This document shows, piece after piece, positions 40,701 to 64,000 of a DNA stretch of 64,000 nucleotides. How positions within the stretch are numbered: position 1 is the stretch's first letter; each line of letters begins with the position of its first letter. Source of the stretch: Lytechinus pictus (Eukaryota); contig NC_087250.1 in the NCBI RefSeq assembly GCF_037042905.1, positions 14,882,001-14,946,000 on the forward strand, read 5' to 3'. The notes under the pieces are model-generated. The model saw nothing but the letters and a program-made list of their open reading frames with translations, was not told where the DNA came from and searched no databases. A program made the position numbers and the translations under genes.

Positions 40701-43700
40701 CATTGACCCTAAATGACCTTTGACCTTGGTCATGTGACATGAAACTCAGGCAGGATGTTCAGTAATACTTGATTAACCTTATGGCCAAGTTTCATGAACT
40801 AGGTCCATATACTTTCTAAGTTATGCTGTCATTTCAAAAACTTAACCTCAGGTTAAGATTTGGTGTTGACGCCGCCGTCGCCGCCGCCGTCGCCGCCGCC
40901 GTCGCCGTCGGAAAAGCGGCGCCTATAGTCTCACTCTGCTATGCAGGTGAGACAAAAACTTACTGTCGTATTTTGGTTGCAAAAACGTACTAAATATGCC
41001 AAAAACATACTGGTTGGCAGCTCTGCAATTCCATAGAATATGTACGTCTGACCCTACGTATGTGAGACTTTTGTGAAATTTTCTTTCACTGATTTCTGGT
41101 TCTTTTGACAGTCTGTAATGCTCTCAAATGATCATGACTTGGTCAGATCATGAAGTGATGTAAAACTTGAGAAAAATGGGGATCGGACATACAAAAAGGT
41201 TGATCACTTTACGGAATTGCCCCCATACTGACCTTGTCCATACTCTATTCCAGCTAGGAGTTGTGGTCCACAGTGTCAATTCCTTCTCGTCTGTGCATGC
41301 TGCAAAGTACATCCCGCTCCCAGAGAAGGCTGCAGCTAGAACACGCCCAGTCGGAACATGGGGGTCTCTGTCAGGGAGAAATTTACTTGTCATAAATAGG
41401 GCCTATCTTTTCTACTTTTTACTTGGGCCAAATAAACTCAGATTGACATACCACAGGGAATAATTTTGCTTTACAAATTTGAATAGCATTATTGGTCATA
41501 AGGGAAAAGCTCTCAACTAAGTAATGTATATGTCAAGATATGCTATACAAAAGACTTTAAGCATAGCAGTCTTTCAAAAATGTGGAGCAAATTGCGATGC
41601 GATACCAGGAAAACTATTCCCTGTACCATATTCCTTTGTGCCTTCTTTTTGAGAAACACTAAAAAATATTTTTAGGGGTATATGTCATGCATCACGTATA
41701 CCCAAGTGAGGACTTTTTTTGCTTGTCAAATTTTTCATGTTAAAAAATACCCCCCCCCCTTGGGAAATCCTGGATCCGCTCCTGAGTTAGGATCATGATA
41801 AGTGCAATATTGACCCTAACAAATGGAATTTTTATGGTATTCCATAAAAATAATACTTGTGCGTTGTACTGTTCAATACGGTACCATATTGAACAGCAAG
41901 GTAGTAGAAGTCTGTGGGATATTCATCAGATTTCAGTCTTATTTTCAATAAAAATACGCTCTCATATTGCAGAGGTAAATGATGCAGACCAACCGACATA
42001 GAGGGCATTGTTGCTTTAACCCTAACTAGGTCGGGCTTTTTTTACTGTTCTGTGGCCGGGGGGGGGTTGATTCAACCCCCCCCCCCCCCGAGATCTCGGC
42101 CGCCGATCGCGGTAGTGTGCGATGTAATCTACAAATCTGTAAGGTAAAATTTTCCAAAATAATGAGATTTTATTTTATATGAATTAATTATGCTAATTTA
42201 TGCATAAATCATACTTTTTGCTCTAATTCACTAAATAAAGCTCCTAGAATGCTAATTTTTGGTAAAAATATTCTTTGTAGCATTCTTAACAATGGCAATT
42301 GAAAAAAACTTCGGTTTGGAAATCAATTTCTTATGTATTTTATTGTTTTATGAATTTCTTATGTATTTCTTTGTTTTTCTTTGTTTTTTTCACCAGATTT
42401 ATTGCACAACCTTTTTGAAGCATAATTATGCTAAAATCAATTGATTTCAGCTGTTTGAAGTGAAAATAATCATATCTTTATGAATAAGACGAGAAAACTC
42501 AATTTGCATTGACTTTGTACACAAAATCATGTTTTGGAACAATTTTTGGTCTGACATGCACTTACAAAATGTTGCATAAATTTTGGAACCGCGTACCCAG
42601 GCATCGTAAATTTGGTCTCAAAAGATGCGCGAGACTTAAAAGTATAAACTCTGCGAGTGGCGCGGTCAAAAAATTTCGCGCGGCGGAATGATCGCAGAAA
42701 ATGTTGAGGGGAGGGTTGATTCAACCCCCCCCCCGGCCATTTTAGGGTTAAGGAAGGTCCACTTTGCTCAGCTTTTGGGACCATTTTCTCTCACTAGCAA
42801 ATTGGTTTATTCAATGACAGAATTTAATCCTGTTTACTGAAGACTAAACAAATTTAAGACAATAATTCAGTGATGGTTTATTTTTAAAACGTGGTCCAAT
42901 ATTCCAATGTTTGTATATTTTTGTACTTCTATTGTTTGAATCTAGTATTGTCATAATCTGTTAGTTAACCTCTCTTTTGCTATCACTCCTTGAGTGTATT
43001 GTGTCGGTTCATGCTTTCATTGGCATGCGTACCAAGTTGTGCGCGTACTTCAATAGTATGCGCGTATCGAGTGGACCTTCCTAATAAAAGTAATAGCAAC
43101 ACTGCTGTGTGTTGCTGCCCTCTACGTTCGTTGATGTAGACCAAGATACGCCATGTTTTTGATGCATTGCTAAAACACTCTACATGTACTATACTTTTTA
43201 TTAATCCCATGAGCAACTGACAGAGGGGGGGGGGGGCAATTCCATGAAATAATAAATCTTTTCATACATTAGAGTGAACCCCAATCTCTTTCCATTCTTT
43301 ATTTCAATTCATGGGCTGCTCAACTATAATGAAACAATAATAATAATAATATCAATAAAATAATACTTATAATACTATCAACAAAAAAATTAGAATAATA
43401 ATACAAACAATAATAACAACAATAATAATAATGATAATAATATCAATAATATAATAATTACAATACTATCAACAAAAAAATGAAAATAATAATACAAACA
43501 ATAATAACAATAATAATAATAATATCAATAATATAATAATTATAATACTATCAACAACAAAATAAAAATAATAATAAAAACAATAACAATAATAATAATA
43601 ATATCAATAAAATAATAATTATAATACTATCAACAAAAAATAAAAATAATAATACAAACAATAACAATAATAATGATAATAACATCAATAAAATGATAAT

Positions 43701-54686: not shown

Positions 54687-56419
54687 TTAATGCATGTGTA
54701 TTAGGTAAGCTGATGACCTGTATAAGATCCTCTTGATTTGTTTATATCTTTGAAACACATATTACTTGAGTCTGTTCATAAAAAATACCTCACACAGACC
54801 ATCTTCTCATCTCACTTTGATGGTTCTTATACACGGTTTATTTTCAATTTTTCCAATTACCAACTCGTCTACTATCATTTGGTCTACCGTCATTTCGTCC
54901 ACTCACCATTTTGTCTAATAACCAGTTGGTCCAATAGCCATTTAGTCCATATACCATTTCGTCTAATTGGACTAAGTGTTAATTGGGCGAAATGATTGAA
55001 AATAAAATGTATATTAGACAAACTGATGATTAGACGAATGGTTATATATTGGACCAAATGGTTGTTAGATGAAATGTTGATGGACGTAATGGCACTAGAC
55101 TAAATGAAGGTAGACCATATGGTGAGTGGACGAGATGGAATTAGACGAATCAGCAATTTACCCTTATACACAGGTTCAATGTAATGAACAAATGAAAACA
55201 AATGCTGTTGATAAGAAAAGTGGTTTATTTACAAATGCAATGTAAAGAATGTTGAGATGCTATTTTACATTGCCTCTGGTGCAGAAAAAAACCATACAAG
55301 TCAGATGTGTCAGATTTAGATAACATCAACAAAAACGAAACAAAAAAATATAAAAATAATAAAAAATGTTCATGCCAAAAGAAATTGATCCACCATTCCC
55401 CCCCACCCGGGGTTCCCTTTTAGCTTTCATTATACATCGGAGGAATTGAAATGTTGAAAATGTATATTTAAAGATATTCCTTTCACTTTATTTCACTCCA
55501 AGTGATATTTTATGCCAAATATTTTCTTTGTTGAATGAGAAGATCAAACTTATTTAGTTCCTTACATAAGTGACATTTGGAGATATATTTTTTTCATGCA
55601 ATGACCCCCTCAAAAAAAAAATTACCCTACATTGAAAAAAAGAAAAAATCATTTTTGTTTTAACATGACTGAAAGAATCAAGAAAAGGAGTTAGTACACC
55701 TGAAAATGACATTTTTTCTTTTTGCAAGGTCTCATACATTGTACAAAAAATTGCTTATGCTAGTATCAATAGCTTCAAGTCCAAACTGTTAAATCAAATA
55801 CCTTTGGCAAAGCATCAGATATTACATGGATAGTTGATTTTTCTAATGGCGCTATACCAGAAAGTTGAATAAGATTCTTTTGCAACTGAGGCATCAGACA
55901 TATAATCGATAGCAGATTATTTTATTTTCATCACTATCAGAATTTTGCATTAGAATATTTCTGCAAGGCATACATTATATGGATAGTTGATTATTCAAGC
56001 ACCAATAACCCTTTATCAGAAATGTTACACAAGATTATCACTTAATATATCCCAATAAACAAATAATTTTGTTGTTTCGGTGCAAGAACATCCTTACACT
56101 GTAACACCACACTTTGACGAATTGCAAATAGCAGCACGCATAAGCGCAAGGGCGTTTCTGCATCGATGCACAAAAATGTTTTGCCGAAGGCATTCTTGCA
56201 CCGACGCATTGCAAAAAACGCCTTTCGCAGCACGCACAAGGGCATTTGTGCACCGATGCACACATTTTTTTTGCTAAGGGCATTCTTGCACCAACACGAT
56301 TTTGATGTTGATTTCTATACAAACCATGTGATACCTACACTGAGCCGTGATTGGTGGCTGCGATCCTAACAGATGACCAATCAGAGAGCAGGTTTAGGGG
56401 AGCTGTTGAGAGATACGTG

Positions 56420-56449
56420 CCATGAGCAGGAGTGTGCAATGCATCATGG
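56420..56449 (-). promoter_or_regulatory. U1A/SNF-binding-like RNA hairpin (U1 stem-loop II mimic)
   Basis: Minus strand CCAUGA-U-GC [AUUGCACACUCCU] GC-UCAUGG; AUUGCAC at the 5' side of the loop, closed by a C-G pair. Confidence 0.5.
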
Positions 56450-57460
56450 GACACGCAAGGAAAAGCAGGTCAGCTTGATCAAGGTCACAGATCATGTGAC
56501 AAGAACACATATCAGGTGACTTGTGAATATCATGTGACCCAATTATGAATGAATGTCTAAAATATTGTCATAACCATGAATTCATTTGCACCAAGTATAA
56601 AAGATGTATCACATTATAAATCCTTGAATATGACATATCATGCATCTCTATAGGATGCTATCACACTACATTAGTTTTAAAGATGAAATCTATTTCTGGT
56701 TATAAATTTGATTAACCTTTTATGTCTTTGATATTAAATATAAATAAAGGGCTCTGGACCTTCAGTTTTATTTGTGAATGAAAATTTCATCACTTTTGTA
56801 GCACTTAATTATTCAATGGGGCTAAAGTAAGTTAATTGTTATTCCAAACAGTTTATAAAAAAAAGCATTCAACTTGACCTTTTAATATCACTGTTCCCAC
56901 TGATAATATTTGTAGCTAAATCCTATGGCTGCTGGTCTGCGTGAAGCCGGAAAACTGTGCGAGTGTGAACACTCCACATCCAACAAGATAAACATTAGGC
57001 ATCCAGTGGTTAATTTATAGAGCTTGCAGGAGCCAATGAGGATCATTGGTGCATGTGCACTGGGTTCAAACCACTGACCGGTAACCAATCAGAATTGATG
57101 TTTTATGATAACCAGGATATGTCCAATAGATGTAACATTTGGGATACAGAAATCAATGGCAGAACAAGCAAAAGCCAATCATGATCATCGGTCCATCATG
57201 GGCACCATGCTCAAACCACTGACCAGTAACCAATGAGAATTGTTTCATGTTTGAGATTGATTGCTAATCTTTTGTGTTACAGGCATTGGTCTCACTAGAT
57301 CACTATCTATTGTAGAACATGGGCAAGCGTTCTGTCAGGAATTTTCAATCAAGGGTCATAGTAATCCTGATCTAGTTTACAGTCAGGAAATATTTTAATA
57401 CATTTCGTAAATTCAAAGCAAACAAACATTGAATCTCGGACATAACTGGTCACTAATCTC

Positions 57461-57499
57461 TCCACAGGGGAGTGCAACATTTTGAGTACAATCCATGAA
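57461..57499 (-). promoter_or_regulatory. PIE-like double U1A box in the proximal 3' UTR
   Basis: UUCAUGG AUUGUAC UCAAAAU GUUGCACUCC CCUGUGGA; AUUAAA at 57399-57394. Confidence 0.5.
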
Positions 57500-57515
57500 C
57501 GAAAACCTAGAGGAA

Positions 57516-57675
57516 CTATTTTTTGGCGAATGCAATTTTTAGAGTGTTTGTCGGCGTGATTTTAAATCCTTGGAGGGCATCCTTTGCTGTTCCCGACTGT
57601 TGTTCGTTAGCGAATTCCACAAAGGCGATGTCGTGTCTCCCTGGGACGAGACGGACTTCCTTGTATCCATTGAAT
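57516..57675 (-). CDS. SNRPA: U1A/SNF terminal coding exon
   Basis: [52 protein letters not shown]. Confidence 0.95.
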
Positions 57676-60600
57676 CTGTAAAAAAAGAAAGACAAAATGT
57701 AGGGTGGTAAAAAAGGACAGCACACTATGTCATATGGCTGTTTTAATTGAATTGATTAATTGTCATGCACATAACAAAAGTTGCAAAAAAATCATCTTCT
57801 GGCTCACATTTCATAATACAAACAATCACATACAAAGAATGTAAATTAAAGAACATAACACTACACATTTTATATTTCTGCTGAGGGCCGTTGGCCCCAA
57901 GAGTGAAACTAAATTAAACATTTATTAAGTTAGACATGATGTTTTTACACTGACTGGTTACCCGTTTTGATTAGCTACGTAAAACTGAAATCCGATCATC
58001 ACAGAATCAAAATGGTCACTTTTATAGGACAACTCCACCCCACAGTGGAGACACAACATATGATCATTTTCACAAATACCGGTAAGTCTTTTTTCTACAG
58101 AAGTGCCCACTCAGGGTTCCCAGCTTTTCAAGAAAACAAAATTCCCTGATTTTTCCCTGACTGGAAAAAATTAAAATAATTTTTCCTAATGCGCTGGGAA
58201 CCCTGACACTAATGTTACAATTACACAGACAAAAATGACTCCAGACTGACAAAAGCTATGTTATTTAACCAATAAGACCCCCCCCCCTCCCCCCACAGGA
58301 AGAAGATTTCACTTCAATAGGGTGGGGCATTAGGAGAACATGCCCCTACCCATCTACATCTCTATATGGCACCACCTAGATAATTATGTCAAACATTTCA
58401 CTTTCTTGCTGACGACACAATACACGATCACTTTCACAAACAAGTCGTTTTTGTACAGAAACGGTCACACAGACGGAAATGACTCAAGGCTGACATAAGC
58501 TATTAAAGATAAATTCCAGTTTTGGTAACGATCTCAAAATGACTTTTTACAGAATCTAATAAAATGACCACCCAAGTGTCTGTTTGTATGAATAAAAAAT
58601 ATGTGCCAAAGCATTCTGGAAGAAATTGTGTAATTGCTGAGAAATAAGCAAAATAAGCGCGGATTCTGTCACTTCCGTCGGGTCTTTATTTCAGCAATAA
58701 CAATACACTGTCCCACGTGTGCCTATCTGTGTTGGCGATCTTCAGTGTGAACATTTTCAGCGTAGATTTCAAGATTTCACAAAGTTCAGTTTATGTAACT
58801 GTACCAGATCTAGATCCTCGATGATATACTGACATTTAAGCCTGGTTTTACAGACTTTCTCATGAAATCGGTGTTTACTGCAACTACTCGCATTTCTCTT
58901 TGAATTATAACAAAATACAGACTACCAGTCAGTTTGGAGTCTGTTTCGTTGGTGAGACTGCAGCATTAGATAGTGATGTTTTTTTTACTTACTGCTTGAA
59001 TAAAACCTCCAACATGAGCTCATTGGTTTCTTCCGGTAAATTCGTAAGGAAGAGGATGTTATTAGGCTCATCAGGAACAACTGTGAAATAAAACAAGAAT
59101 ACATGTTATAAAATGGTGTTGTGGAACCAGGGAATAATCTGAATAAGCTTTACTAATTTTGTTATTATTTTTCCTATTTACAATGCCTATACTTTGAAAA
59201 ATATTTTATCATCATGAGAATCAGCATCTGCTTTACTTTATTTTTTATTATTAAAGGAGAATGAAACCCTTGAAACCAGCTGAATCCATATAAAAGAGAA
59301 AAATCAAAGAAACATATTGTTGAAAGTTTGAGGAAGATTTAATGAAAAATAAGAAAGTTATGAGCATTTGAATATTGAGATCACTAATGCCATGTAGATC
59401 CTCCCATTGGCAATGCGACCAAGATCTGTGATGTCACACACGTACAACTCCCTCATTACTTTAGTACTTATTTCACTTATATTCTCACTTTTATAGAGTC
59501 TATCACAAGGTGAGGTGTTCTCTTTATGAGAGGACAAGTACAGAGGTTTCACAACATTATATCATTGATGAATCGTTTGTCATATGATTAGAATGAGCAA
59601 AAAGAGATGTTTTGGGGTATATATTCAGTGTCCAAAACTGGACAACTCTCCCCTTTTGGACACTGAAAATGTACCCCAAAACATCTCTTTTTGCTCATTC
59701 TAATCATATGACAAACGATTCATCAATGATATAATGTTGTGAAACCTCTGTACTTGTCCTCTCATAAAGAGAACACCTCACCTTGTGATAGACTCTATAA
59801 AAGTGAGAATATAAGTGAAATAAGTACTAAAGTAATGAGGGAGTTGTACGTACGTGTGTGACATCACAGATCTTGGTCGCATTGCCAATGGGAGGATCTA
59901 CATGGCATTAGTGATCTCAATTTTCAAATGCTCATAACTTTCTTATTATTCATTCAATCTTCCTCAAACTTTCAACAATATGTTTCTTTGATTTTTCTCT
60001 TTGATATGGATTCAGCTGGTTTCAAGGGTTTCATTCTCCTTTAATTTTCCTCAAGTCACTATTCATATAAAATACTTGTCCTTACTTGTTTTGTTGTCTC
60101 AAACACGCTATTTACATTACATGTTGTAATTGACTTTTCGTACCAAAAGTCAATTGAAAGTGTTGATCTCTGTTGGGATAAAAATCAATGAATGATTTGA
60201 ATTGAGACTAACCTGGTGCCGGTGCAGGTGGGGCTTGTATCGGCGGTTGCCCCAGCATGGGCATGTCACCCAGCAGGGGTGGAGGCTGGTTGACTGGGGG
60301 AGCTCCAGGCATGGGGATCTGTGACGGAGGGGGGATGATGACGTCTGCGTGTCTGTTCTGCCTGTTCTTCCTTCCCTTCACTGGCTCTGTTATGGAAATC
60401 AATACACGGTTGTGAAAAAAAAACATTGAAGGAGAATGAAACTCTTGGAGCAAGTTAGCTTTTGTGAAAGCAGAAAAATCAAAGAATAAGATCAACAAAA
60501 GTTTGAGTAAAATAGGACTAGCAATAGAAGAGTTATGAGCATTTGAATGTCGAGATCACTAATGCTATGGAGATCCTCCCATTGGCAATGCGACCAAGAT

Positions 60601-63319
60601 CTATGATGTCACAGATGAACAACTCTCCCCTTTTGGACACTGAAAATATACCCCAAAACATCTCTTTTTGCTCATTCTAATCATATGACAAAATGATTCA
60701 TCAATGATATAATGTTGTGAAACCTCTGTACTTGTCCTCTCATAAAGAGAACACCTCACCTTGTGATAGACTCTATAAAAGTGAGAATATAAGTGAAATA
60801 AGTACTAAAGTAATGAGGGAGTTGTACGTGTGTGACATCACAGATCTTGGTCGCATTGCCAATGGGAGGATCTACATGGCATTAGTGATCTCGACATTCA
60901 AATGCTCATAACTTTCTTATTATTCATTCAATCTTCCTCAAACTTTCAACAATATGTTTCTTTGATTTTTCTCTTTGATATGGATTCAGCTGGTTTCAAG
61001 GGTTTCATTCTCCTTTAACAAAACGGCATTGTATTATAAATTCAAAATTGTAAAAACATTTTCTACTTTTTAAAACTGAATTTTGAAACATTTATAAACA
61101 AACCTTTTTTGTGTGATCTTCCTTTCTTTTATTGACTCTTATTTGGTATCAATACAAGGTTGTTCTAATATTATGCAATCATACAATGAAATGCAAAAAT
61201 CTTGATAATTAGTTTTCTCTATAATATTTGTTTAGCGAAGCCAACGAAAGGCTATGATTCTTGGGTAGCATCAAGAATTAATTAAAGATAATTAAAGATA
61301 TAAGGGCACTTACCGGGCAAAAAATAATTTTTCTAAATTTTTTGGGGGGGCTATTTTTCACAACTTAATGCCTAATCCTGCCACATTGGATAAGCTTTAA
61401 TACTGCAATGAATGGAGATTTTCCATGGCTCTTTTTGAGCATTTTAGGGGCAACATCGCCCCGAGCCTCAGAGTAGTTTTTTCTTCCCGAGCACTTACCC
61501 TCAGCTTTCTTCTTTTCTATCCTCTTTTCTCTTGGGACATAAGTTCCCTGGATCTTGGCGATTGCATCCGACTTCGTCTTGGAGTATTGTATCCTCTGTA
61601 ATAAAAAAATAACAAAATGGATCAGTCTTTTCATTCTAGAAAATATGCATGGATGCTGGTGTAAGTGGACATGATGATAGATGTGATATAATATAATAAT
61701 AATATTCCTCATTTATATAGCGCTTAATACATCAGAACGACGTCTCTAAGCGCTTTACAGACATATTATTACCCCGGTCATCGGATCCTTGCATGCCCGC
61801 ATACAATGTATGCACCTTCTCCACTCCCTGGGGAGCATTCCAACAAGAGTTCCAAGACTCAATTGCTAGGCATACTACATATAGGCTTTCACATCCTACC
61901 GGGTACCCATTTAACACCTGGGTGGAGAGTGGCAAAGTGTGGATTAACGCCTTGCCAAAGGACGCTAGGCCATGGTGGGATTCGAACACACGACCCTCTG
62001 ATTACAAGGCGAGAGTCAGAACCGCTACACCACGACGCTTCCATCATCAAGAAATTTACCCACATTGTGCTGCACTCAACCCAGCTGAGATGAATAGGTA
62101 CCTGACTACCTGGTAGGAAAAAAATCCTCAAATGTGTGAGTGCCTGTAGGCAGCACGGCCAAAGCCAGAGTAACAATAACATTTTGGAATCCACAGTTGA
62201 GTATATACTGTACATTGTGCAATACAATGAATTATTATGATTATTTTCAACAAACAACTTTTAATCAATGCTCGTATCCACTCTGCACAGAGCTTGAGGC
62301 AGCAATCATCACATAGAGAGTATTATTTGGACCAATCTCCAAAAAGTACTAAACTTTATGTAACAAGGGCTTATATAGTCAATTCAAATTCTGTGAAAAA
62401 AACTTGACATTGTATTTCAAAATTGTTGAGGGTCATTCAAATAAGTTGAATAATAAATTTAGTGTTCCAACGGTCCCCTTGACACAAAAGTTAGTGATTG
62501 ACCATGGGGCTGAGTTAGTTCTACGATTGGTTGCATTCATTACAGAGTATGATCAACCATATAAATCATTTCTATAATCAATTATAAGCTTTTTGTTAAT
62601 AGGGACCTTAGCCTTTGTCTTGGGGTGCTTTGAAAGAAAATATTGACAGTCAATTGCAAATTTATATTGCAATTTTACATTTGATTGATCAAATTTAGCA
62701 GTAGGAAAATCAGATTAGAATCCTTGTAAGATGTTGGATAAGCACATCAGGGCATAAAAGTTACTATTACAGTAACTTTGCCATCCAATAATAACTACCA
62801 TGGTAACTCTGATCACCAACCAAACAAATCAAAATTAAGGATTCTAGACAAGTTACCATTGGATGGCAAAGAACACTTATGCAACGGGGTCCAGAGCCCC
62901 GTAACACAGAGATTAGTGGCTAATTTGAAAGATCAATATTGATCCTTGTCAGTCTACTGAGCAAAATGCACATGCAACAATGATCTTGATAGGTCATTTC
63001 ATTTAATAGCTATTAATCGCTAACCGTTGTGTTACAATCAATAGCAAATTTGCAATTAATTGCAAGACATGTTCGAATGTTGGACCCCACAGTAGATTTG
63101 CGATTGATTGTAAAATTCCTTGTATGTAAGGCCCCCCAAATCTTACCATGGGTTTATCGTAGAAAGGAAAGCCCTGCATGGACCGCAGTGCGCTGGTAGC
63201 CGACATGATGTCTTTGAAGATTACAAAAGCTTGACCTCGCATCTTGAGGGTCTTCAACGCTACGATGTCCAAGATCTGACCAAACTGGGAGAAGATGGCA
63301 TACAGCGACTTCTTGAGTT
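57516..63319 (-). CDS. SNRPA: U1A/U2B''/SNF family snRNP protein (SNF-type, two RRMs); first exon outside the window
   Basis: complement(join(57516-57675,58993-59080,60213-60386,61499-61595,63147-63319)); RRM1 [58 protein letters not shown]2 [40 protein letters not shown]. Confidence 0.95.
58993..59080 (-). CDS. SNRPA: U1A/SNF exon (start of RRM2)
   Basis: [37 protein letters not shown]. Confidence 0.93.
59255..60040. mobile_element. Fold-back (palindromic) Kolobok/T2-like MITE
   Basis: TTAA|AGGAGAATGAAACC...GGTTTCATTCTCCT|TTAA; about 385-bp arms nearly perfectly complementary around 59638-59653. Confidence 0.88.
60213..60386 (-). CDS. SNRPA: U1A/SNF Pro-rich linker exon (174 nt, phase 1-1)
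   Basis: [66 protein letters not shown]. Confidence 0.88.
60430..61014. mobile_element. Kolobok/T2-like MITE, same family as 59255-60040
   Basis: aggagaatgaaac / gtttcattctcct ends; right 390 bp nearly identical to the right arm of the fold-back copy. Confidence 0.85.
61499..61595 (-). CDS. SNRPA: U1A/SNF exon (end of RRM1, helix C)
   Basis: [40 protein letters not shown]. Confidence 0.93.
61695..62043 (-). mobile_element. Full-length tRNA-derived SINE
   Basis: Near-identical to 44050-44398. Confidence 0.85.
63147..63319 (-). CDS. SNRPA: U1A/SNF RRM1 core exon
   Basis: [64 protein letters not shown]. Confidence 0.95.
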
Positions 63320-64000
63320 CTGTGATGGTGAGAATGGAGACATATCGATGGCAATAGGTAAATTCAGATCACATAGTTCGTGCTGTATTATAAACTGCCA
63401 AACAGGGTTTTAGCTTGAGTTCATCTACTAGCAAGTCTTTCTTAGTAGGGATGTCAACCTGAAAATTCATATCTAATTCAGATGTTGAAGATGGCCAGTG
63501 AAAACAAAAGGCCTTTGCAATTGATTTAAAATAACACTAAGAATATGGTCAAATTCTGACCAGTGGTTGCCGAGATACAGCAATTCAAATTTCCAGAAAA
63601 GGGCAATTTTCTGGCGCCAATGCAGTTTCTCACCGGCCGATACCACTACCAGTATACCTCACCACCAATATATGTCATGACAAGTCTCTCACTCTTAAAA
63701 TCTAAGTCACATTACGAGGCGAGGTCAACATAATATACCCATCATTTTTCCACATATTGCGATCGGGAATGGCTGTATTTCGGCTTCGAGTTCCGTGTCG
63801 ACGTCATCGTTCGAATTCTCAGTCAGACATAGCTTCACTTGGATTCACCATGCGCCATAATGTTGATACGGGCTGAGGTTAGCGACCAAATCATTCAAAC
63901 GAACTACCGCTGGCATGGGAATCTTTTTTAGTTTTGGTCGCTAATTTTCAGTCCATATCAACATTACGGAGAGCTAGAGCGGCGAAGCAATGTCTGATTC

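What the first reader, a model, noticed from the sequence alone, without database searches (positions are those of the whole stretch)
56420..56449. U1 stem-loop II mimic hairpin about 1.1 kb downstream of the U1A/SNF stop, in sense orientation
Seen: the minus strand folds as CCAUGA(U)GC-[AUUGCACACUCCU]-GCUCAUGG, an 8-bp stem with one bulge and a C-G closing pair, with AUUGCAC exactly at the 5' start of a 13-nt loop ending in CUCCU. Known: U1A/SNF RRM1 needs AUUGCAC at the 5' side of a loop plus the C-G closing pair; U1 SLII has a 10-nt loop and U2 SLIV a 13-nt loop. A lone heptamer is expected by chance roughly once per 10-20 kb, but this stem context next to the cognate gene is much less likely. 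Inference: a second autoregulatory site present only in long-3'-UTR isoforms (minus-strand AATAAA at 56772-56767 upstream; 55926-55921 and 55229-55224 downstream), coupling SNF level to poly(A) site choice.
Basis: partly seen in the sequence, partly recalled or inferred. Interest (0 to 1): 0.75.

Follow-up and report, generated by a model that had tools for sequence, protein, structure and literature searches.

The report
SNF-binding hairpin in SNF's own mRNA
The sea urchin gene for the splicing protein SNF (U1A/U2B'') carries, in the 3' untranslated part of its main messenger RNA, a stable hairpin that copies the U1 RNA loop this protein binds, so the protein probably senses and limits its own production, though binding has not been tested.

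Summary
On the minus strand at 56449-56420 lies CCAUGAUGC[AUUGCACACUCCU]GCUCAUGG, with a C-G closing pair, 1,066 nt after the stop codon of a single-copy SNF-type U1A/U2B'' gene. The stem runs on for six more pairs (56457-56414).

It is not a repeat. The hairpin and its loop are unique in the 812-Mb genome. About 4 in 10,000 window positions carry a stem as good, which gives roughly 5e-5 to 2e-3 expected chance cases for this gene.

Stranded RNA-seq puts the hairpin inside the mature mRNA. Depth there is 92-100, against 90-134 on the last coding exon and 0 in the neighbouring intron. Coverage falls only near the AAUAAA at 55926.

So the hairpin sits in the main isoform, not only in rare long ones. 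The AAUAAA at 56772 is not a major end.

It is not a vertebrate-type PIE: there is one terminal loop, 494 nt upstream of the poly(A) signal, and no Rfam RF00460 match.

Best reading (about 0.5): a U1 stem-loop II mimic that lets free SNF bind its own mRNA for feedback. Binding, the direction of the effect and conservation in other urchins remain untested.

The parts
56414..56457 (-). Whole stem-loop: UGCGUG-(UC)-CCAUGA-(U)-GC[13-nt loop]GC-UCAUGG-CACGUA, 14 base pairs with two bulges
   Evidence: Folds (-15.4 kcal/mol free; -15.1 with the loop forced open)
56420..56449 (-). Core hairpin as reported: 8 Watson-Crick pairs, one bulged U, C-G closing pair
56428..56440 (-). Loop AUUGCACACUCCU. AUUGCAC (56440-56434) is at its 5' start, and CACUCC is also shared with the U1 loop
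   Evidence: own U1 loop AUUGCACUCC
57516..57675 (-). Last coding exon of the SNF (U1A/U2B'') gene, second half of RRM2, stop TAG at 57518-57516
   Evidence: RNA contigs break at 57675
63147..63320 (-). Exon encoding most of RRM1 (58 aa, with VALKT and RGQAFVIF)
   Evidence: Drosophila SNF 6e-30, human U1A 1.4e-28, U2B'' 2.5e-26. Single copy in the genome
55900..57515 (-). Main 3' UTR, about 1.6 kb (3' end approximate). A minor extension reaches about 55210
   Evidence: Depth profile and contigs
55921..55926 (-). AAUAAA, probable main poly(A) signal, 494 nt downstream of the hairpin
   Evidence: depth falls from 27-54 to 6-15 across it
56767..56772 (-). AAUAAA 318 nt upstream of the hairpin; not a major 3' end
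   Evidence: coverage recovers downstream and contigs bridge it
55224..55229 (-). Distal AAUAAA, probable end of the minor long form (another AAUAAA lies at 55492-55487)
   Evidence: X1 contigs reach 55211
57469..57492 (-). Proximal boxes AUUGUAC (57492-57486) and GUUGCACUCC (57478-57469), 23 nt after the stop; no supported structure
56443..56538 (-). Four direct copies of GUCMCMUGAU (starts 56538, 56520, 56500, 56452). The last copy forms the 5' arm of the hairpin
56129..56310 (-). Two units of a dispersed genomic repeat, about 110 nt 3' of the hairpin and not including it

Best explanation
The 44-nt stem-loop at 56457-56414 (minus strand) is a mimic of U1 snRNA stem-loop II. It sits in the constitutive 3' UTR of the sea urchin's only SNF (U1A/U2B'') gene.

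Shown here:
- The hairpin exists and is stable.
- It presents AUUGCAC at the 5' side of an open loop closed by C-G.
- It is unique in the genome.
- It is part of the mature, sense-strand mRNA at about the same level as the coding exon.

Inferred:
- SNF protein not yet built into U1 or U2 snRNPs binds the hairpin through RRM1.
- The mRNA thereby reports surplus SNF, and binding lowers SNF output (negative feedback).
- The step affected is most likely nuclear maturation, export or stability of the message. It is unlikely to be the vertebrate mechanism, because there is one site rather than two and it lies about 0.5 kb from the poly(A) signal rather than next to it.
For: Anatomy: the loop-plus-closing-pair rule is met. 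The genome's own U1 stem-loop II is C[AUUGCACUCC]G, and the 3' UTR loop also contains CACUCC. The stem has 14 pairs and is robust in 5 of 6 folding contexts.

Chance:
- 3.8e-4 of window positions have as good a C-G-closed 10-13-nt loop (48 of 127,894).
- By pair counting the rate is 2.7e-4 (34 of 127,840).
- With 8 heptamers per 128 kb, about 0.14 heptamers are expected in the 2.3-kb 3' region. That gives about 5e-5 chance hairpins there, or about 2e-4 for the whole pre-mRNA.
- It is the only such stem among 2,331 positions in the 3' UTR.
- None of 27 genomic sites with the same loop and closing pair within one mismatch has a stem at -8 kcal/mol or better.

Not a repeat.

Expression: two stranded RNA runs give depth 99.6 and 91.7 at the hairpin, on the gene's strand only. 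The last exon gives 90-134 and the intron 0. Spliced RNA contigs of the same species and of a second species run from the exon through the hairpin.

The gene: RRM1 matches Drosophila SNF and human U1A at 6e-30 and 1.4e-28 and is single-copy. It has the pre-duplication VALKT motif. Pre-duplication proteins bind stem-loop II with very high affinity (PMC4114683, passages).

Precedent: vertebrate U1A binds stem-loop II-like sites in its own 3' UTR (PMC5071671 and PMC6884704, passages).
Against: - No binding data exist.
- Conservation in other urchins could not be read. The second species' contig aligns across the UTR with 151 mismatches and 53 gap letters, but differences seen only in that species were mostly not listed.
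- The loop is 13 nt, not 10. The free RNA probably pairs A1 with U13, which hides the first heptamer base.
- One site cannot reproduce the two-protein PIE mechanism. It lies 494 nt from the nearest used poly(A) signal.
- The 5' arm is one of four GUCMCMUGAU copies. The local sequence may be shaped by another factor, and its CAUG cores raise the local odds of a stem.
- In human cells U1A sites in 3' UTRs more often raise than lower expression (PMC9136276, passages). The direction of the effect is therefore open.
Confidence: 0.5

Rival explanations
1. Chance hairpin. A fortuitous AUUGCAC lies in a fortuitous stem, with no effect on SNF expression, even if the protein can bind it weakly.
For: - One of the other 7 heptamers in the window (41808, minus strand) also sits in an 11-pair stem, though without a C-G closing pair.
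- The 3' UTR is rich in CAUG and CAUGAU, at 8.7 against 5.2 CAUG per kb, which favours local pairing.
- The loop length differs from U1.
- No conservation data are available.
Against: The expected number of such hairpins in this 3' UTR is about 5e-5. The test was specific to the one gene whose product reads this motif. None of 27 look-alike loops elsewhere in the genome has a comparable stem.
Confidence: 0.2
2. A real SNF-binding site whose effect is not negative feedback. Bound SNF would stabilise the message, aid 3'-end formation, or hold it in the nucleus or cytoplasm for storage, for example as a maternal mRNA.
For: U1A sites in human 3' UTRs more often raise expression, and U1A bound to the SV40 late upstream element aids polyadenylation (PMC9136276, passages). 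The site is single and far from the poly(A) signal, unlike the inhibitory PIE.
Against: Positive feedback on an abundant snRNP protein has no obvious use. Every described self-binding case for this family is inhibitory (PMC6884704 and PMC5071671, passages).
Confidence: 0.12
3. The hairpin is confined to long 3' UTR isoforms, and SNF binding couples the protein's level to the choice of poly(A) site.
For: Several poly(A) signals exist (56772, 55926, 55492, 55229). At least two 3' ends are used, near 55900 and near 55210. Depth at the hairpin is 60-85% of exon depth, so a minority of shorter ends cannot be excluded.
Against: Both detectable ends lie downstream of the hairpin. Coverage recovers after the 56772 signal, and contigs of two species bridge it. 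The hairpin is 318 nt from that signal, far beyond the range of known U1A effects on cleavage.
Confidence: 0.06
4. The region is kept for another reader, and the U1-like loop is a by-product. That reader could be an RNA-binding protein or a DNA-binding factor that recognises the four GUCMCMUGAU copies and the CCAAT/AUUGG-rich modules.
For: Four copies of a 10-mer lie within 96 nt, and the last is the 5' arm of the stem. CCAAT plus ATTGG occur at 7.4 per kb against 2.4 in the window. Repeated 46-nt and 20-nt modules contain ACCAATCAGA.
Against: This does not explain an exact AUUGCAC placed at the 5' edge of a C-G-closed loop, nor the 3' arm and outer helix. No antisense or separate transcript is seen: the opposite-strand depth is about 0.
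Confidence: 0.1

Closest known systems
Vertebrate U1A polyadenylation inhibition element (PIE; Rfam RF00460)
   Same: It is a U1 stem-loop II-like U1A site in the 3' UTR of the protein's own mRNA, in sense orientation, and offers a route to self-regulation (PMC5071671 and PMC6884704, passages).
   Different: The PIE is a 47-53-nt element with two boxes that binds two U1A molecules and lies just upstream of the poly(A) signal. Here there is one terminal hairpin loop, 494 nt upstream of the nearest used AAUAAA. The Rfam model does not match. The gene is a pre-duplication SNF type, not U1A proper.
U1 snRNA stem-loop II of the same genome
   Same: AUUGCAC at the 5' start of the loop, a C-G closing pair, and CACUCC in the loop.
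   Different: The loop is 13 nt rather than 10 (AUUGCAC-AC-UCC-U). The stem sequence is unrelated. There is no U1 model hit, so it is not a U1 pseudogene piece.
U2 snRNA stem-loop IV of the same genome
   Same: A longer loop bound by the same protein (11 nt flanked by U-U).
   Different: Stem-loop IV has AUUGCAG and a non-C-G closure, and needs U2A' for tight binding (PMC5992148, passages). The 3' UTR hairpin has the stem-loop II signature (C7 and a C-G closing pair).
U1A sites in other mRNAs (SMN 3' UTR, IgM secretory poly(A) site, iCLIP targets with UUGCAC)
   Same: Binding of the snRNP-free protein to 3' regions of mRNAs, with effects on 3'-end processing or mRNA level (PMC9977717 and PMC9136276, passages; the IgM case was seen only as a reference title in PMC3157836).
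   Different: Those are targets in other genes, in mammals, and mostly lie close to the poly(A) site or are unstructured.
U1A-gene intron hairpins in fungi
   Same: The gene for the protein carries a stem-loop II mimic in its own transcript.
   Different: Those lie over splice signals in introns and would act on splicing. They are unchecked AI notes on other genomes and were not tested here.

Membership tests
U1 stem-loop II-type binding site of U1A/SNF RRM1 | AUUGCAC as the first seven loop nucleotides | tested here: met
   loop AUUGCACACUCCU. The own U1 has AUUGCACUCC.
U1 stem-loop II-type binding site of U1A/SNF RRM1 | [quoted passage not shown] | tested here: met
   C56441 pairs with G56427.
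U1 stem-loop II-type binding site of U1A/SNF RRM1 | Ten-nucleotide loop (heptamer plus three spacer bases) | tested here: not met
   The loop is 13 nt, or 11 nt if A1 pairs with U13 as in the minimum-energy fold. From memory, the 3' loop bases act only as a spacer; that was not checked in a paper here.
U1 stem-loop II-type binding site of U1A/SNF RRM1 | Stable stem that presents the loop | tested here: met
   14 pairs and -15.4 kcal/mol. Pair probabilities are 0.72-1.0 in 5 of 6 contexts.
U1 stem-loop II-type binding site of U1A/SNF RRM1 | Bound by the protein | not testable with these tools
   No RNA-protein prediction or CLIP data were available.
Vertebrate U1A PIE (RF00460) | Two boxes (AUUGCAC and a variant) held in one structure that binds two U1A molecules | tested here: not met
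   The structure has a single box. The only near-match nearby (AUGGCAC, 56423-56417) lies within the 3' arm of the stem (56427-56414). No RF00460 match in 55000-58000 at E up to 10 or in the genome search (59 of 70,284 candidates scored).
Vertebrate U1A PIE (RF00460) | Located just upstream of the poly(A) signal (PMC5071671 and PMC6884704, passages) | tested here: not met
   It lies 494 nt upstream of the AAUAAA at 55926 and 318 nt downstream of the AAUAAA at 56772.
Vertebrate U1A PIE (RF00460) | Lies in the 3' UTR of the U1A-family gene's own mRNA | tested here: met
   same-strand RNA depth equals exon depth, the intron reads 0, and spliced contigs run through it.
Vertebrate U1A PIE (RF00460) | The protein's basic stretch after RRM1 inhibits poly(A) polymerase through the polymerase's C-terminus | not testable with these tools
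   A basic stretch ([12 protein letters not shown]) aligns with human U1A 103-114 but equally well with U2B''. The polymerase tail is reported as conserved in vertebrates and not in flies (PMC9136276, passage). The urchin polymerase was not examined.
Dispersed repeat or U1 pseudogene fragment | Many copies in the genome, or similarity to U1 beyond the loop | tested here: not met
   One genomic match each for the 301-nt stretch, for the 30-mer within 3 mismatches, and for the 15-mer exactly. Only 56129-56310 of the UTR is repeated. No U1 model hit, and the stems are unrelated.

The most novel reading that the evidence does not exclude
Self-recognition by the U1A/U2B''/SNF family is older than the vertebrate PIE. 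An echinoderm's single, pre-duplication SNF gene would already regulate itself through a U1 stem-loop II mimic in its constitutive 3' UTR. The architecture differs (one terminal hairpin about 0.5 kb from the poly(A) site), so the mechanism would be different and still unknown. Together with the fungal intron hairpins noted in this scan, this would make 'the gene carries its own snRNA loop' a recurrent solution in eukaryotes.
Probability: 0.4. Interest if true: 0.7.

Novelty: new variant of a known kind. Interest (0 to 1): 0.58.

Why it matters
U1A self-regulation through the PIE is a textbook case. In the passages read here it is described only for vertebrates or mammals, and the mechanism depends on a poly(A) polymerase tail reported as conserved in vertebrates.

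A working stem-loop II mimic in the mRNA of an echinoderm's undivided SNF gene would show three things:
- Sensing of snRNP-free protein by its own message predates the U1A/U2B'' duplication.
- The cis element can be rebuilt in a different form and place.
- A second mechanism, not based on the two-protein PIE, must exist.

Sea urchin embryos allow direct tests by mRNA injection and morpholinos.

Tried and rejected
- Cross-species conservation. The index of sequencing runs listed no holder on record as RNA ('no RNA holder listed'). Ten runs of a second species hold 0.20 of the sampled words of 56000-56760. I laid one of them. Its 1,845-nt contig aligns over 55980-57675, but only about 27 of its 151 mismatches were listed, so the state of the hairpin in that species could not be read.
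- Metagenome scan for a 24-mer of the hairpin: 0 matches.
- Earlier notes of this scan, searched by place, by relatives and by sequence: nothing for this genome or for look-alikes.
- Rfam scan of 55000-58000 at E up to 10: five weak, unrelated hits and no U1 or PIE. PIE model over the genome: none.
- Proximal 'first site' (AUUGUAC and GUUGCACUCC). The fold of 57530-57400 is no better than shuffles (z +0.61). The two boxes are 7 nt apart on one strand, so they cannot form a PIE-like pair of internal loops. Heptamers within one mismatch are mildly enriched in the 3' region (9 seen, 3.9 expected).
- U1 pseudogene origin: rejected.
- Upstream exon encoding the RNP2 part of RRM1: not found in the 820 nt beyond the window end.
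- Literature searches found no paper on a self-binding site in a non-vertebrate animal U1A/SNF mRNA. The library lacks most subscription journals. The 2007 paper on the U1 site beside the PIE (PMC2080603) is not held.

Full report
**What is there.** The stem has eight Watson-Crick pairs with one bulged U. The loop-closing pair is C-G, and AUUGCAC occupies the first seven loop positions.

Folding adds two points.
- In the free RNA the first loop A pairs with the last loop U, which leaves an 11-nt loop.
- After a 2-nt bulge the helix continues for six more pairs (UGCGUG/CACGUA). The full element is 56457-56414, with 14 pairs and -15.4 kcal/mol.

The stem pairs keep probabilities of 0.72-1.0 in five of six sequence contexts from 71 to 1,616 nt. 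One 501-nt context prefers another fold.

**The gene.** Exons on the minus strand encode a U1A/U2B''/SNF protein.
- The 58-residue RRM1 exon (63320-63147) matches Drosophila SNF at 6e-30, human U1A at 1.4e-28 and U2B'' at 2.5e-26.
- It is the only such gene found in the 812-Mb genome (1 match, 3 candidates scored).
- It carries VALKT in strand 2/loop 3. In passages of PMC4114683 this marks the pre-duplication proteins that bind both U1 stem-loop II and U2 stem-loop IV. The same paper places the U1A/U2B'' duplication in jawed vertebrates.

The last exon is 57675-57516, with stop TAG at 57518-57516. The hairpin starts 1,066 nt after the stop.

The genome's own U1 has C[AUUGCACUCC]G. Its U2 stem-loop IV is CCGG-U[AUUGCAGUACC]U-CCGG. 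The 3' UTR hairpin therefore has the stem-loop II signature (C at loop position 7 and a C-G closure) and also contains CACUCC, but in a 13-nt loop.

**Is it more than chance?** The heptamer alone is ordinary: 8 in the window on both strands, with 10.4 expected. The stem around it is not.
- In the real window 34 of 127,840 positions are framed by 8 or more Watson-Crick pairs with at most one bulge, a C-G closure and a 10-13-nt loop. With G-U pairs allowed the count is 164 of 127,840. With 9-15-nt loops as well it is 305 of 127,840.
- With the loop forced open and the closing pair enforced, 48 of 127,894 positions reach -15.1 kcal/mol or better.
- With about 0.14 heptamers expected in the 2.3-kb 3' region, the expected number of such hairpins there is about 5e-5. 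For the whole pre-mRNA it is about 2e-4. Allowing tenfold or more for looser definitions a reader might have accepted, it is 5e-4 to 2e-3.
- Inside the 3' UTR this is the only one of 2,331 positions with 7 or more Watson-Crick pairs of this kind.
- The 15-mer of loop plus closing pair is unique in the genome. Of 27 distinct genomic sites within one mismatch of it that I fetched (out of 36 listed), none has a flanking stem at -8 kcal/mol or better; their range is -6.8 to +4.6.

Two results count against this.
- One of the other seven heptamers in the window (41808, minus strand) sits in an 11-pair stem, though without a C-G closure.
- The 3' UTR is rich in CAUG (8.7 against 5.2 per kb), and the 5' arm is the fourth copy of a local 10-mer, GUCMCMUGAU. 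Local odds of a stem are therefore somewhat above the window average.

**Is it a repeat?** No.
- The 301 nt around it, and the 30-mer within three mismatches, each occur once in the genome.
- A search with the whole 1.6-kb UTR found dispersed copies only for 56129-56310, which starts 110 nt 3' of the hairpin (40 of 212 candidates scored).
- It is not a U1 fragment. The stems are unrelated, and no Rfam family, U1 included, matches at E up to 10.

**Is it in the mRNA?** Yes, and in the bulk of it. I laid two stranded, rRNA-depleted RNA runs of the same species on 54800-58400 (about 6% of each run read). Coverage was on one strand only, the same strand for the coding exon and the whole 3' region.

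| Stretch | Depth, run X19 | Depth, run X20 |
|---|---|---|
| Last-exon bins (57462-57703) | 133.7 and 90.3 | 125.4 and 117.3 |
| Intron (57704-58066) | 0 | 0 |
| Hairpin bin (56373-56493) | 99.6 | 91.7 |
| 56010-56130 | 27 | 54 |
| 55889-56009 | 6 | 15 |
| Down to about 55290 | 5-33 | 5-33 |

- Two dips (57220-57340 and 56615-56856) coincide with clusters of differences and indels between the reads and the reference. Coverage returns to full depth after each, so they are not transcript ends.
- RNA contigs of a third run of the same species break exactly at the exon border 57675 and tile the UTR down to 55211, except 56116-56211.
- In a run of a second species a single 1,845-nt contig runs from beyond 57675 to 55980, through the hairpin position. 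Contigs alone do not prove one molecule. With the zero intron depth, however, they fit a single 3' UTR.
- The main 3' end is therefore near the AAUAAA at 55926-55921, and a minor one lies near 55229-55224. The AAUAAA at 56772-56767 is not a major end. Depth at the hairpin is 60-85% of exon depth, so a minority of shorter ends is not excluded.

The core idea survives: a stem-loop II mimic, in sense, in the cognate gene's transcript, and not a repeat. The added idea does not: that the hairpin exists only in long isoforms and couples SNF level to poly(A) site choice. Both detectable ends lie downstream of the hairpin.

- It is present but shows no supported structure (z +0.61).
- Its two boxes, 7 nt apart on one strand, cannot form the PIE's paired internal loops.

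**Comparison with the known system.** In vertebrates a 47-53-nt element just upstream of the poly(A) signal binds two U1A molecules. Together they block poly(A) polymerase (passages of PMC5071671, PMC6884704 and PMC3157836). The polymerase tail involved is reported as conserved in vertebrates and not in flies (passage of PMC9136276).

The urchin element differs on each structural point.
- It has one terminal loop rather than two internal loops.
- It lies 494 nt from the nearest used AAUAAA.
- It does not match Rfam RF00460 in the 3' region or in the genome search.

The protein does carry a basic stretch after RRM1 that aligns with human U1A residues 103-114, but it aligns equally well with U2B''. 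So the element works like a stem-loop II site and is placed like an autoregulatory site, but it is not a member of the PIE family.

**Most likely mechanism.** Free SNF binds the hairpin through RRM1, and this lowers the yield of its own message. Because of the single site and its distance from the poly(A) site, I favour an effect on nuclear maturation, export or stability over polymerase inhibition. Only the anatomy, the uniqueness and the expression are shown. Binding, direction and step are inferred.

The main rivals are these.
- Chance (about 0.2).
- A real site with a stabilising or storage role (about 0.12). U1A sites in human 3' UTRs more often raise expression (passages of PMC9136276).
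- A region kept for another reader of the GUCMCMUGAU and CCAAU-rich modules (about 0.1).

**Novelty.** Five full-text searches found no paper describing a self-binding site in a non-vertebrate animal U1A/SNF mRNA. The library misses most subscription journals, so this is weak evidence of absence. Two unchecked notes of this scan report stem-loop II mimics in introns of fungal U1A genes. I did not test them. I rate this a new variant of a known kind.

**What remains open.** Conservation in other echinoids is the decisive missing computation, and I could not get it. Differences seen only in the second species were mostly not listed. A metagenome scan found nothing.

Noticed in passing
window 57469-57492 (minus strand): Beginning 23 nt after the stop codon lie AUUGUAC and GUUGCACUCC, 7 nt apart. 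The second matches 9 of 10 bases of the U1 loop. They have no supported fold and no PIE model match, but they may be weak single-stranded SNF sites.
   Followed up: partly
window 56443-56538 (minus strand): Four direct copies of GUCMCMUGAU lie within 96 nt, starting at 56538, 56520, 56500 and 56452. The last forms the 5' arm of the hairpin. What reads them is unknown (an E-box-like DNA site or an RNA motif).
   Followed up: partly
window 56366-56385, 57027-57097, 57169-57242: The 3' UTR holds repeated modules with ACCAATCAGA or ACCAATGAG (46-nt copies at 85% identity, and a 20-nt copy next to the hairpin). CCAAT plus ATTGG occur at 7.4 per kb against 2.4 in the window.
   Followed up: partly
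window 56129-56310: Two roughly 90-nt units of a dispersed repeat lie inside the 3' UTR. The genome has at least 212 candidate copies at about 80% identity, including clusters on contig C17.
   Followed up: partly
window 57138-57337: Some RNA reads and one contig replace 198 nt of the 3' UTR with 17 other letters, and reads over 57284-57330 differ at 15-17 places. This looks like a structural allele of the UTR that removes one CCAAT module.
   Followed up: no
window 54800-55162: A very highly covered repeat, transcribed on both strands, lies just beyond the distal end of the gene. It has many back-joined and strand-switching reads and looks like a tandem or satellite-like element.
   Followed up: no
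window 41781-41820 (minus strand): Another AUUGCAC sits in an 11-pair stem with a 12-nt loop but without a C-G closure, 15 kb downstream of the gene. It probably reflects an inverted repeat.
   Followed up: no
G000 contig C2:31961190-32010256 and C8:33237223-33284622: U1 genes form a tandem array with a 1.4-kb period, and U2 genes one with a period of about 1.04 kb.
   Followed up: no
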